Source: Escherichia coli (lineage in GTDB: Bacteria > Pseudomonadota > Gammaproteobacteria > Enterobacterales > Enterobacteriaceae). Taken from it: DNA of 64,000 nt. This document shows positions 18,001 through 21,000 of the stretch, piece by piece; position 1 is the first letter of the stretch, and every line of letters starts with the position of its first letter. The position numbers were made by a program. Location: the NCBI RefSeq assembly GCF_030013205.1, contig NZ_CP122648.1. One strand, given 5' to 3'.

Positions 18001-21000
18001 AGCAGCACCACCGCCAGCAGTGCTGTGATTTCACGGTTGTTCTGAATAAATTTCAGCATGACGCCTCCTGACGCTGACTATCGCCGAAGGCAACGCGCAT
18101 AATGGTCTCGACATTAATATCGCGTCCGGTCAGTGCAGAGTGGGCAATTTCGCCCTGATGCATCACATATACGCGATCTGCCATCAGTTCGATCTCTTCC
18201 AGATCAGAGGAGATAAGCAGCACTGCCACATTCTGTGCGGCGATGCTGCGCAACAGCTGGTAGATATCATTACGGGCTGAGACATCCACGCCGCGCGTCG
18301 GCTCATCGACAATCAATACTTGCGGCGAGGCTTCCAGACATTTGGCAATCAGGATTTTTTGCTGGTTGCCGCCGGATAAGGTCCGCGCAGCTTGTTCCGG
18401 TTGGTTAAATTTAATATTCAGCGCCCGACGATAACGTTCCAGTGTGGCGCTATCTTTCGCGGTTTTCGCCCAGAATCCACGAAGGTTATGAGTAAGGGCG
18501 CAGACGTTCCAGGCCAGCGAAGCATCGAGATTCAGTCCGGATGACTGGCGATCTTCCGGCAGATAAACCAGACCGCGCAGTAAACGTTCTCCAGTGGATA
18601 ATTTATTGATCTCTTTACCATTCAGCATAATGCGTCCGCCACGCAAAGTACGCAGACCATAGAGCGTCTCGGCCAGTTCTGTGCGTCCGGCCCCCACCAG
18701 CCCAGCCAGACCCAGAATTTCTCCGGCATTAAGCGTCAGGCTGACATTCATAAAACCTTCGCCGGTCAGGTTTTCCAGTGTCAGCACCGGCGTTCCGGCG
18801 GCATGTTGTGGGCGGTTGCCAGGTAACTCCAGCCATAATTTTTGGCTGGCAGAGAGCGATTTTTCCCGTAGCGCTGGCGTGATGGCCTGAATAATGTCGT
18901 CGGTAGACAGTTCGCTGGTTTTGCCGCTTAAGGCGATAGTTCCGTCGCGCATCACGCTAATCCGATCGGCAATCTGGCGAATTTCCGGCAGCTTATGCGA
19001 GATAAAAACAATACCCACGCCAGTAGCAAGCAGCTCTTGCAAGCGAGTAAACAAGCGTTCGGTTTCCGCAGGGGTAAGCGAGGCGGTAGGTTCATCGAGG
19101 ATCAGAATCCGCGAGTCGCGCATCAGCCCGCGGAGGATTTCCACCATTTGGCGATCGGCGACATCCAGAGATCCTGCCAGACTATGCAGATCAAACTGGC
19201 AGCCCAGAGCCGCCAGCAAGTTCTTCATTTTCTGCATGGAGAGCTGTTTTTTTGCCAGCCCAAACAGAATGTTTTCTTTTATCGACAGGCTTGGGAAAAG
19301 CAGCGGTTCCTGGGGAACGAGATAAATACCCAACTGATGAGCATGAACTGGCGTTAATCTGGTGTAGTTGTTGCCCCCAATCTCAAGCGTACCGCTATCA
19401 GCAGGGGTAATACCGGCAATAATCTTCATTAACGTCGATTTACCGGCACCATTGCCGCCGAGCAGGGCGTGGACCTCCCCCTGGTGCAACGTAAAATCGA
19501 TGCCTTTCAGGACATTAACCCCTGAATACTGTTTATAAACCGAGCGGGCGCAAAGTAGCGGTAACGCGCGGGTATCACTCGTTTGCATATTTCCCCCGTT
19601 CAGTTTTGCAGGTGAGTTTTGAACAAATGTATTTCTGCTTTTAATTTGTTCATAACCTTAGGTGGACATTGCACATATTTCCGACGAATAGATCACAATT
19701 TATGCTATTTTGATTTTCACGGTTGCGTTTGTTCATGCTCGTAGAGTCAAACTGTGGTTGCCATCACAGATATAAATGCGCAAGAACTGAACAATTGCAT
19801 TAAAGATTTAAGTATGTTCAAAGTGAAGAATGAATTATGACAATCAACGATTCGGTAATTTCAGAACAGGGAATGTGTGAAGAAGAACAGGTCGCGCGGA
19901 TTGCGTGGTTTTACTACCACGACGGGCTGACCCAGAGTGAGATCAGCGATCGTCTCGGCCTGACCCGTTTGAAAGTGTCGCGATTACTGGAGAAAGGGCA
20001 TCAGTCCGGCATTATTCGCGTACAGATTAATTCTCGCTTTGAAGGCTGTCTGGAATATGAAACACAATTACGTCGTCAGTTTTCGCTGCAACATGTCCGG
20101 GTGATCCCAGGGCTTGCGGATGCTGATGTCGGCGGGCGACTAGGGATAGGCGCGGCGCATATGTTGATGAGTTTACTTCAACCACAACAGATGCTGGCGA
20201 TTGGTTTTGGCGAGGCAACCATGAATACGCTGCAACGCTTAAGTGGTTTTATTTCGTCACAGCAAATTCGCCTGGTCACGCTCTCCGGTGGAGTCGGTTC
20301 TTATATGACGGGTATCGGGCAGCTTAACGCGGCGTGCAGTGTGAATATTATTCCGGCTCCGTTGCGGGCATCCTCCGCTGACATTGCCCGTACGCTAAAA
20401 AATGAAAATTGCGTCAAAGATGTTCTGCTAGCCGCGCAAGCAGCGGATGTGGCGATTGTCGGCATTGGGGCTGTGAGTCAACAAGACGACGCAACAATCA
20501 TTCGCTCCGGCTATATCAGCCAGGGCGAACAGTTAATGATTGGTCGAAAAGGGGCTGTTGGCGACATTTTAGGCTACTTTTTTGATGCAAAAGGTGACGT
20601 TGTCACGGATATCAAAATACATAACGAACTGATTGGCTTACCTTTAAGCGCGCTGAAGACTATTCCCGTCCGGGTTGGCGTTGCAGGGGGAGAAAATAAA
20701 GCCGAAGCAATTGCCGCTGCAATGAAAGGCGGTTATATCAACGCACTGGTTACCGATCAGGATACAGCAGCGGCGATTTTACGTAGTTAAATTTGCATGA
20801 CCTTATTACCGGGAATGATGGAGAACGTACAGAGGAACAGACAGAACGCATAAGCCGAGGATAATCTAATGGCTCGACTCTTTACCCCTTCTGAATCAAA
20901 GAACTACCTGATGGCGCTGGATGCAGGTACCGGAAGTATTCGGGCTGTGATATTCGACCTGGAAGGCAATCAAATAGCCGTGGGACAGGCGGAGTGGCGG

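What the first reader, a model, noticed from the sequence alone, without database searches (positions are those of the whole stretch)
19620..19652. Perfect 9-bp inverted repeat with 15-bp spacer in the lsrA leader
tgaacaaat ... atttgttca lies 30-60 bp upstream of the lsrA start in the lsrR/lsrA divergent region, near a CRP-like site (19754-19769). It could be an LsrR operator half-site pair or an RNA structure in the lsrA leader.
Basis: seen in the sequence. Interest (0 to 1): 0.25.

Follow-up and report, generated by a model that had tools for sequence, protein, structure and literature searches.

The report
LsrR operator at the lsrA promoter
The inverted repeat is real and is most likely the DNA site where the quorum-sensing repressor LsrR sits on the start of the E. 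coli AI-2 uptake operon; this is a known regulatory link, but the site is defined more sharply here than in the papers I could read.

Summary
The repeat is exactly as described: TGAACAAAT (19620-19628), 15 nt, ATTTGTTCA (19644-19652). It lies 32-64 bp upstream of lsrA in the 248-bp lsrA/lsrR divergent region of an E. coli genome. A 9-bp inverted repeat alone is not remarkable (19 in the window, about 5 expected by chance).

What matters is the 6-bp core, TGAACA-N21-TGTTCA.
- A second copy lies at 19788-19820, just upstream of lsrR.
- The core is kept with an exact 21-nt spacer upstream of lsrA in about 70 Enterobacterales species, while the spacer sequence drifts.
- Copies sit 83 or 166-168 bp apart.
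- The arms match the operator of B. subtilis DeoR, an LsrR homologue that binds DNA as a tetramer.
- DeoR's base-contacting arginines are conserved in LsrR.

A conserved CRP half-site and a TAnnnT -10 hexamer place the lsrA transcription start inside the repeat. The box would then span about -4 to +29, which suggests repression by steric occlusion.

The RNA-hairpin alternative fails: there is no covariation, and arm pairs 7-9 break in most species.

LsrR binding at the lsrA promoter is already published (Xue 2009). The published AT-rich motifs sit next to the palindrome, not on it. I score this as already known, of modest interest.

The parts
19620..19652 (.). Box A (O_A): 33-bp LsrR operator TGAACA-N21-TGTTCA. 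This is the finding. The conserved core arms are 19620-19625 and 19647-19652.
   Evidence: for the sequence. About 2 bits of information at all 12 arm positions and 0.1-1.6 bits inside, over 63 distinct orthologous sequences. Exact 21-nt spacer in about 70 species.
19788..19820 (.). Box R (O_R): second 33-bp box, TGAACAATTGCATTAAAGATTTAAGTATGTTCA, 17 bp upstream of the lsrR ATG and 168 bp from box A.
   Evidence: It contains the published p-lsrR-box motifs AACAAT (19790-19795) and AAGATTTAA (19803-19811), and the error-prone-PCR derepression hot spot TAATGCA (19796-19802) (PMC8487509; PMC5137460). Conserved at +166 to +168 in the Escherichia, Citrobacter, Salmonella, Pantoea and Rahnella types.
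19703..19735 (.). Box M: vestigial middle box, TGCTAT-N21-TGTTCA, exactly 83 bp from box A. Only the right arm is intact in E. coli.
   Evidence: It is a full box (1-2 mismatches) at +83 in Salmonella (L081), Serratia, Entomohabitans, Kluyvera, Superficieibacter, Photorhabdus, Xenorhabdus and Morganella. The right-arm GTTCA is invariant in the 12-species alignment A2.
19655..19660 (-). Inferred -10 hexamer of the lsrA promoter (TAAGGT on the minus strand), 2 nt upstream of box A.
   Evidence: The TAnnnT pattern is conserved. In alignment A3, T6 is invariant and A2 is kept in at least 90% of 43 sequences. In A2, positions A76, T80 and A81 are invariant. This is an inference; no start-site data were found.
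19647..19649 (-). Inferred lsrA transcription start. Box A would then span about -4 to +29 and the 5' UTR would be about 60 nt.
   Evidence: Geometry only: a -10 hexamer at -12 to -7 and a CRP half-site centre at -41.5 both point to 19648. Not measured.
19682..19697 (-). CRP-I site (TGTGATCTATTCGTCG on the minus strand). The left half, TGTGATC, is conserved. Its centre, 19689.5, is 37.5 bp from the first base of box A.
   Evidence: GATCAC is invariant in A2. (T/C)GTGATC lies at a fixed offset of 37.5-38.5 bp from box A in nearly all genera. PMC5137460 labels it CRPI and places it between CRPII and the p-lsrA-box.
19753..19768 (.). CRP-II site, TGTGGTTGCCATCACA (centre 19760.5).
   Evidence: TG..G and TCAC.G are invariant in A2.
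19599..19620 (-). Published 'p-lsrA-box' motifs, AAAACT (19620 to 19615) and AAAACTGAA (19607 to 19599). They adjoin box A and overlap it by one base.
   Evidence: The motifs are quoted from Xue 2009 in PMC8487509 and mapped onto the sequence. They are poorly conserved outside Escherichia.
18053..19588 (-). lsrA, the AI-2 ABC transporter ATPase and first gene of lsrACDBFG.
   Evidence: NCBIfam NF011967, 957 bits.
19837..20790 (+). lsrR, a SorC/DeoR-subfamily repressor and the presumed binder of the boxes.
   Evidence: NCBIfam NF011947, 620 bits. Matches PDB 4L5I and 4GO1. R44 and R49 align with the base-contacting R34 and R39 of B. subtilis DeoR.
20869..22461 (+). lsrK, the AI-2 kinase that makes the inducer phospho-AI-2.
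   Evidence: NCBIfam NF008187, 1001 bits.

Best explanation
The repeat is the lsrA-proximal operator (box A) of the AI-2 repressor LsrR. The recognition unit is a 33-bp element, TGAACA-N21-TGTTCA.

By analogy with the homologous B. subtilis DeoR, I infer that one LsrR tetramer (a dimer of dimers) binds the element. The two outer DNA-binding domains would read the invariant TGAACA and TGTTCA arms, and the two inner domains would contact the AT-rich interior mostly through the backbone.

The box lies 2 nt downstream of a conserved -10 hexamer and 37.5 bp from a conserved CRP half-site. It therefore probably covers about -4 to +29 of the CRP-dependent lsrA promoter, and bound LsrR would block RNA polymerase sterically.

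Published work establishes that phospho-AI-2, made by LsrK, releases LsrR and derepresses lsrACDBFG.

Box A is one of two or three boxes set at steps of 83 or 166-168 bp (8 or 16 helical turns). The others are box R at lsrR and a vestigial box M. This spacing suggests that the boxes act together.

Shown here: the sequence, the second copy, the conservation, the spacing, and the absence of RNA covariation. Inferred: that LsrR is the binder of this exact element, the tetramer binding mode, the transcription start, and any cooperativity.
For: 1. Exact repeat and a second 33-bp copy. These are the only two matches in 64 kb, with 0.05-0.07 expected.
2. Box R contains the motifs whose mutation abolishes LsrR binding or repression. 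These are AACAAT and AAGATTTAA from Xue 2009, quoted in PMC8487509, and the derepressing error-prone-PCR mutations at -214 to -208 in PMC5137460. AACAAT includes four bases of the TGAACA arm.
3. Phylogenetic footprint. The box upstream of lsrA carries 0-1 mismatch and an exact 21-nt spacer in about 66 of 68 divergent lsrA/lsrR regions from at least 20 genera whose LsrR is 64-97% identical. The arms carry about 2 bits per position and the interior 0.1-1.6 bits. Enrichment is 139 hits in 44 kb against 4 in 426 kb.
4. Homology. The B. subtilis DeoR operator is ATTGAACA...TGTTCAA, that is TGAACA-N24-TGTTCA. It is bound by a tetramer, and half-operators alone do not bind (PMC11229326). LsrR is also a tetramer (PDB 4GO1, cited there). 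LsrR matches DeoR-DNA structure 8R7Y. DeoR's base-contacting R34 and R39 align with LsrR R44 and R49, and both are invariant in 15 LsrR orthologues.
5. A Bacillus lsrR homologue (39% identity) has AGAACA-N21-TGTTCT upstream.
6. Promoter geometry is conserved: CRP half-site, then a TAnnnT hexamer, then 2 nt, then the box.
Against: No direct binding data for this exact element were available to me.

The published p-lsrA-box motifs (AAAACT, AAAACTGAA) lie at 19599-19620, beside the palindrome rather than on it. Recent papers still describe the LsrR motif as AT-rich, NNNTTTTNN (PMC13393413).

I could not read Xue 2009 or Thijs 2010 for the footprint limits.

The transcription start is inferred, and three start-site supplements had no lsrA entry.

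The spacer is 21 nt, against 24 in DeoR, so the tetramer geometry is an extrapolation.

Sinorhizobium pSymB, whose LsrR is 44% identical, shows no such box.
Confidence: 0.85

Rival explanations
1. RNA hairpin in the lsrA 5' leader. The two arms would pair in the mRNA and affect its stability, translation or termination.
For: The E. coli minus-strand RNA 19660 to 19612 folds into a 13-bp hairpin of -9.3 kcal/mol, z = -3.7 against shuffles. The 73-nt leader gives -12.3 kcal/mol, z = -2.5.
Against: - Across 43 distinct orthologous sequences the hairpin has 70.3% of cells paired, against 70.9% in shuffles.
- The six core pairs never vary. Pairs 7-9 are unpaired in 37-74% of sequences and the flank pairs in 40-77%. 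The covariation score is no better than shuffles.
- The same palindrome recurs upstream of lsrR, and in many genera between the two genes, where it cannot be an lsrA leader.
- The inferred start (about 19648) lies inside the 5' arm, so the full stem would not be transcribed.
- There is no Rfam match. The best hit has E = 0.71 and is a Tetrahymena snoRNA.
Confidence: 0.03
2. LsrR binds the published AT-rich motifs next to the repeat (19599-19620). The palindrome itself would be incidental, or would serve another protein.
For: Secondary quotations of Xue 2009 give AAAACT and AAAACTGAA as the p-lsrA-box. PMC13393413 derives an NNNTTTTNN motif from the cysP, lsrA and lsrR promoters.
Against: - The AAAACTGAA stretch is not conserved outside Escherichia and its close relatives, whereas the palindrome arms are invariant.
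- AAAACT overlaps the first base of the arm and the T flank, which in DeoR is part of the recognised TTGAA. Its mutation would therefore also damage the palindrome.
- At lsrR the published motifs fall inside the paralogous palindrome.
- No other regulator gene travels with the locus.
Confidence: 0.06
3. Operator for a different transcription factor, for example CRP, CytR or Cra, which have been linked to lsr expression.
For: CRP activates lsr. PMC5137460 proposes a CytR site nearby. PMC8085971 reports that Cra activates lsr.
Against: - TGAACA-N21-TGTTCA does not fit the CRP consensus (TGTGA-N6-TCACA).
- From general knowledge, it also does not fit the Cra or CytR half-site spacings.
- The motif tracks the lsrR locus specifically (139 against 4 hits), including in a Bacillus homologue.
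- It matches the operator of the LsrR homologue DeoR.
Confidence: 0.03
4. Chance palindrome in AT-rich intergenic DNA.
For: Perfect 9-nt inverted repeats are common: 19 in the window, with about 5 expected by chance.
Against: There is a second copy, and the arms and spacer length are conserved across at least 20 genera while the interior diverges.
Confidence: 0.01

Closest known systems
[quoted passage not shown]
   Same: - Same outer half-sites, TGAACA and TGTTCA, in inverted orientation.
- AT-rich interior with weaker inner sites.
- A homologous repressor with the same domain architecture, tetrameric, with a phosphosugar effector.
- The base-contacting arginines are conserved (R34 and R39 in DeoR, R44 and R49 in LsrR).
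   Different: - The spacer is 21 nt here and 24 nt in DeoR.
- The DeoR operator lies at -60 to -21, whereas box A is inferred at -4 to +29.
- LsrR boxes occur as two or three phased copies in a divergent promoter region.
- The effector is phospho-AI-2, not deoxyribose-5-phosphate.
- Binding of LsrR to this exact element was not tested here.
Published E. coli LsrR 'p-lsrA-box' and 'p-lsrR-box' (Xue et al. 2009, Cell Res 19:1258; quoted in PMC8487509 and PMC5137460)
   Same: Same locus, same repressor and same promoters. The p-lsrR-box motifs lie inside box R. The p-lsrA-box motif AAAACT abuts box A and overlaps it by one base.
   Different: The published definition is a pair of short AT-rich motifs, 6 bp + 7 + 9 bp. 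It does not describe a palindrome, and at lsrA it lies mostly outside the repeat. The comparative data here point instead to TGAACA-N21-TGTTCA as the conserved unit.
B. subtilis CggR operator (SorC/CggR subfamily; cryo-EM, PDB 8R3G)
   Same: A tetramer (dimer of dimers) sits on a contiguous bipartite operator of about 40-45 bp. A phosphosugar effector breaks the effector-domain interface.
   Different: It has a different type of DNA-binding domain and a different sequence motif, and two dimers bind cooperatively.
Multi-operator loop systems (lac O1/O2/O3, gal OE/OI, E. coli deo)
   Same: Several helically phased operators surround a CRP-dependent promoter. A distal operator mutation (box R) derepresses the lsrA-direction promoter (PMC5137460).
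   Different: Looping by LsrR has not been shown. Each LsrR box already looks like a complete tetramer site, so looping would need contacts between tetramers.

Membership tests
LsrR operator (SorC/DeoR-subfamily repressor binding site) | Lies in the promoter region of a gene known to be repressed by LsrR | tested here: met
   32-64 bp upstream of lsrA in the lsrA/lsrR divergent region. The genes were identified by NCBIfam equivalogs. LsrR repression of lsrA is published (PMC5137460).
LsrR operator (SorC/DeoR-subfamily repressor binding site) | Sequence related to an experimentally validated LsrR site | tested here: met
   73% identical over 33 bp to box R, with identical arms. Box R contains the mutated p-lsrR-box motifs and the error-prone-PCR hot spot.
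LsrR operator (SorC/DeoR-subfamily repressor binding site) | Inverted outer half-sites of the TTGAACA type, spaced for a tetramer as in the DeoR operator | tested here: met
   TGAACA-N21-TGTTCA here, TGAACA-N24-TGTTCA in DeoR. The 3-bp difference in spacer has not been modelled.
LsrR operator (SorC/DeoR-subfamily repressor binding site) | Conserved at orthologous loci, with constrained arms and a free interior | tested here: met
LsrR operator (SorC/DeoR-subfamily repressor binding site) | The repressor keeps the DNA-contacting residues of the family prototype | tested here: met
   DeoR R34 and R39 align with LsrR R44 and R49. Both are invariant in alignment A1.
LsrR operator (SorC/DeoR-subfamily repressor binding site) | Direct, specific binding of LsrR to this element (footprint or EMSA) and release by phospho-AI-2 | not testable with these tools
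   Xue 2009 reports binding to the lsrA promoter. The quoted motifs are adjacent to the repeat.
Cis-regulatory RNA hairpin in a 5' leader | Base pairs maintained by compensatory changes across orthologues | tested here: not met
   70.3% of cells paired against 70.9% in shuffles. There is no excess covariation. Pairs beyond the 6-bp core are mostly broken.
Cis-regulatory RNA hairpin in a 5' leader | Both arms lie within the transcript | tested here: inconclusive
   The start inferred from the conserved -10 hexamer and CRP geometry is about 19648, inside the 5' arm. No experimental start site was found.
Cis-regulatory RNA hairpin in a 5' leader | Match to a curated RNA family | tested here: not met
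   The Rfam E-value search of 19500-19900 gave only one hit, with E = 0.71, and it is irrelevant.
CRP binding site | TGTGA-N6-TCACA consensus | tested here: not met
   The repeat has a 21-nt spacer between 6-bp cores. The real CRP-like sites lie elsewhere, at 19682-19697 and 19753-19768.

The most novel reading that the evidence does not exclude
The true recognition element of LsrR is a DeoR-like 33-bp palindrome, TGAACA-N21-TGTTCA, and not the short AT-rich 'boxes' used in the E. coli literature.

The lsr control region would hold two or three such operators locked at 83-bp steps (8 helical turns), with the two CRP sites between them. LsrR tetramers on these operators would cooperate, by looping or a higher-order assembly, to shut both divergent promoters at once. 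This would explain why mutations in box R derepress the lsrA promoter 150 bp away.

If this is right, many 'direct LsrR targets' assigned from AT-rich motifs (ahpCF, katG, cysN, cysP) lack a real operator. In this 64-kb window, no perfect box occurs outside the lsr region.
Probability: 0.4. Interest if true: 0.45.

Novelty: already known. Interest (0 to 1): 0.28.

Why it matters
LsrR control of lsrACDBFG is the core switch of AI-2 quorum sensing in enteric bacteria, and the lsr promoter is reused in synthetic biology.

The regulatory link is established, so the finding itself is not new. Two points have practical value.

- A sharply defined operator. It is 33 bp, with invariant 6-bp arms and a fixed 21-nt spacer, and its copies sit at fixed 83 or 168 bp steps. 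This gives a much more specific search pattern than the AT-rich motifs now used to nominate LsrR targets. It also tells promoter engineers which bases to leave alone or to change.
- A link to structure. The match to the structurally solved DeoR operator allows a concrete model of the LsrR-DNA complex.

Tried and rejected
- RNA structure. The E. coli sequence folds well, but the comparative pair counts show no support and Rfam has nothing. Rejected.
- Promoter and terminator scan of 19540-19900. No hits, so it was uninformative. This is expected for CRP-dependent promoters.
- Primary literature. Xue 2009, Thijs 2010, Wu 2013, Ha 2013, Xavier & Bassler 2005 and Wang 2005 are not held. The footprint limits, and any earlier description of the palindrome (for example in Thijs 2010 or RegPrecise), could not be checked.
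- Experimental lsrA start site. The supplements of Cappable-seq, SMRT-Cappable-seq and the eLife 3'-end paper have no lsrA or lsrR entries, and Thomason 2015 is not held.
- TGCAAT (19673 to 19668) as the native -10 hexamer. I considered it because the promoter-up mutations of PMC5137460 improve it. It is not conserved, whereas TAAGGT (19660 to 19655) is. The mutations more likely create a new promoter.
- CRP-II (19753-19768) as a single site serving both promoters at +/-41.5. This is less consistent than the conserved CRP-I half-site at -41.5 from the inferred lsrA start.
- Sinorhizobium pSymB. No comparable box, so the motif is not universal among LsrR homologues.
- Literature searches for LsrR with palindrome, operator, looping or RegPrecise terms. 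None of the held papers describes this palindrome as the LsrR site.
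Full report
**Observation.** The repeat finder extends the arms to 13 nt at 92% complementarity. 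The flanking ORFs are lsrA (18053-19588, minus strand), lsrR (19837-20790, plus strand) and lsrK (20869-22461, plus strand). lsrC and lsrD follow lsrA. All match NCBIfam equivalog models far above their cut-offs. The 248-bp intergenic region is 100% identical to an E. coli chromosome and is present in 4178 of 5426 complete E. coli genomes. The repeat lies 32-64 bp upstream of the lsrA ATG.

**Is it more than chance?** Not as a bare 9-bp inverted repeat. The window holds 19 distinct perfect inverted repeats of 9 nt or more with a 3-25 nt spacer, against 5.4 +/- 2.2 in block shuffles. The signal lies elsewhere. The same 33-bp frame occurs a second time at 19788-19820 (TGAACAATTGCATTAAAGATTTAAGTATGTTCA), 17 bp upstream of the lsrR ATG. 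TGAACA-N(19-23)-TGTTCA matches only these two places in 64 kb, with 0.05 expected.

**Comparative evidence.** I fetched 80 Enterobacterales loci that encode LsrR relatives of 64-97% identity, plus Salmonella, Klebsiella, Sinorhizobium and Bacillus records.
- In essentially every locus with a divergent lsrA, a box with 0-1 mismatch to TGAACA-N21-TGTTCA lies just upstream of lsrA, and the spacer is exactly 21 nt.
- The genera include Escherichia, Citrobacter, Kluyvera, Superficieibacter, Izhakiella, Serratia, Entomohabitans, Mangrovibacter, Photorhabdus, Xenorhabdus, Yersinia, Pantoea, Ewingella, Rahnella, Hafnia, Morganella, Prodigiosinella, Affinibrenneria, Salmonella and Klebsiella.
- Over 63 distinct sequences the 12 arm positions carry about 2 bits each and the interior 0.1-1.6 bits.
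- Matches with 1 mismatch or fewer number 139 in 44 kb upstream of lsrR and 4 in the remaining 426 kb.
- Only the outer 6 bp of each arm are conserved. Arm positions 7-9, which make the E. coli repeat 'perfect 9 bp', are complementary in only 21-51% of sequences.

**Spacing of the boxes.** The boxes sit at fixed steps.
- The second box is 166-168 bp from box A in the Escherichia, Citrobacter, Pantoea, Rahnella and Klebsiella types.
- It is 83 bp away in Photorhabdus, Xenorhabdus and Morganella, and 85 bp away, with an N20 spacer, in Yersinia.
- Salmonella, Serratia, Entomohabitans, Kluyvera and Superficieibacter have three boxes at steps of 83-84 bp.
- In E. coli the middle position (19703-19735) keeps only the right arm (TGCTAT-N21-TGTTCA).
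- 83 and 168 bp correspond to 8 and 16 helical turns.

**Who binds it?** The held literature states that LsrR represses lsrA and lsrR by binding two 'boxes' (PMC5137460). As quoted from Xue 2009, these are AACAAT + AAGATTTAA (p-lsrR-box) and AAAACT + AAAACTGAA (p-lsrA-box) (PMC8487509).

Mapped onto the window, the p-lsrR-box motifs (19790-19795 and 19803-19811) lie inside box R, and AACAAT covers four bases of the TGAACA arm. The derepressing error-prone-PCR mutations of PMC5137460 (-214 to -208, TAATGCA, which is 19796-19802) also lie inside box R.

The p-lsrA-box motifs map to 19615-19620 and 19599-19607. They sit beside box A and overlap it by one base. That stretch is poorly conserved outside Escherichia. 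I could not read Xue 2009 to see the actual footprint limits. A 2026 paper still describes the LsrR motif as NNNTTTTNN (PMC13393413). No held paper describes the palindrome as the LsrR site.

**Link to a solved homologue.** LsrR belongs to the SorC/DeoR subfamily. The operator of B. subtilis DeoR is ATTGAACAAAATTTCAATTACCAATTTACATATGTTCAA, that is TGAACA-N24-TGTTCA. A DeoR tetramer (dimer of dimers) binds the full operator. Half-operators alone do not bind, and the inner sites are degenerate and read largely through the backbone (PMC11229326). That paper cites apo-LsrR as the same kind of tetramer (PDB 4GO1). DeoR's base-contacting R34 and R39 align with LsrR R44 and R49, which are invariant in 15 LsrR orthologues. 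A Bacillus lsrR homologue (39% identity) has AGAACA-N21-TGTTCT upstream. Sinorhizobium pSymB does not.

I therefore infer that each 33-bp box is a complete operator for one LsrR tetramer.

**Position relative to the promoter (inferred).** In a 12-species alignment of 248-251-bp intergenic regions (A2) the invariant blocks are:
- the Shine-Dalgarno sequence;
- the box A arms;
- a TAnnnT hexamer (TAAGGT, 19660 to 19655 on the minus strand) 2 nt upstream of box A;
- GATCAC, the half-site TGTGATC of 'CRPI' (19682-19697, centre 19689.5);
- the box M right arm;
- CRP-II (TGTGG-N6-TCACA, 19753-19768);
- box R.

The hexamer is kept in 43 distinct sequences, with T6 invariant and A2 in at least 90%. 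The (T/C)GTGATC half-site lies 37.5-38.5 bp from the first base of box A in nearly all genera. A -10 hexamer at -12 to -7 and a class II CRP site at -41.5 both point to a start at about 19648. Box A would then span -4 to +29, with a 60-nt 5' UTR. That is a classic position for steric repression. No experimental start site was found.

**RNA rival.** The E. coli RNA would fold into a 13-bp hairpin of -9.3 kcal/mol, z = -3.7. On 43 orthologous sequences, 70.3% of cells are paired, against 70.9% in shuffles. The six core pairs never vary. Pairs 7-9 and the flank pairs are mostly broken, and covariation is no better than shuffles. The palindrome also occurs at lsrR and between the genes, and the inferred start lies inside the 5' arm. 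Rfam gives nothing. I reject this reading.

**Comparison with what is known, and novelty.** LsrR binding at the lsrA promoter and its release by phospho-AI-2 are published, so the feature is already known. The refinement here has three parts:
- The conserved unit is a DeoR-like 33-bp palindrome, not the AT-rich motifs.
- It probably overlaps the lsrA start.
- It is one of two or three helically phased copies.

I could not establish whether Thijs 2010 or RegPrecise already describe this.

The phasing, together with the published effect of box R mutations on the lsrA-direction promoter, suggests cooperative action or looping. That remains a hypothesis.

**Verdict.** The LsrR-operator reading is supported by strong indirect evidence, and the RNA reading is rejected. 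The feature is already known in kind, and interest is modest (0.28).

Noticed in passing
window 19703-19735: A vestigial third LsrR-type box (TGCTAT-N21-TGTTCA) lies exactly 83 bp from box A and 85 bp from box R. It is a full box in Salmonella, Serratia, Kluyvera, Photorhabdus and Xenorhabdus. Box-to-box steps of 83-85 or 166-168 bp hold in all genera examined.
   Followed up: partly
window 19668-19675 (minus strand TGTGCAAT): The promoter-up mutations reported in PMC5137460 (TGTGCAAT to TGTACAAT, and to TGTGTAAT) turn TGCAAT into TACAAT or TGTAAT. Both are closer to the -10 consensus. This is a simpler reading than the CytR site the authors proposed. The hexamer is not conserved in other genera.
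   Followed up: partly
window 19598-19602: An extra GTTCA half-site lies inside the published AAAACTGAA motif, 22 bp to the left of the box A left arm, in everted orientation. It is kept only in Escherichia, one Citrobacter and one Serratia.
   Followed up: partly
window 37296-37330: A perfect 13-nt inverted repeat, CACAGTTATGAAC-N9-GTTCATAACTGTG, lies in a non-coding stretch. It sits between a carboxymuconolactone-decarboxylase-family ORF (36406-37170) and an AraC-like fragment and a fimbrial gene. It looks like an operator but no regulator was assigned.
   Followed up: no
window 62760-62792: TGAACA-N21-TGGTCA, one mismatch from the LsrR box, lies inside gadC (61766-63301). About 0.14 such hits are expected by chance in 64 kb, so this is probably chance.
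   Followed up: partly
window 19586-19594 and 19674-19682: A 9-nt direct repeat, CATATTTCC, occurs once across the lsrA start codon and once beside the CRP-I site. This is probably chance.
   Followed up: no
L083 (Sinorhizobium meliloti pSymB) 1225-1270: Upstream of the alphaproteobacterial lsrR homologue there is no TGAACA-N21-TGTTCA box. There is a different palindrome-rich stretch (TGTTCATATGTAATTCATGAAATTCATGTGATCA), which suggests the operator has diverged.
   Followed up: no
window 35665-36390: This ORF has a partial match to the LsrG / ABM monooxygenase domain (NF007791, 56 bits, below the cut-off). It lies far from the lsr operon.
   Followed up: no
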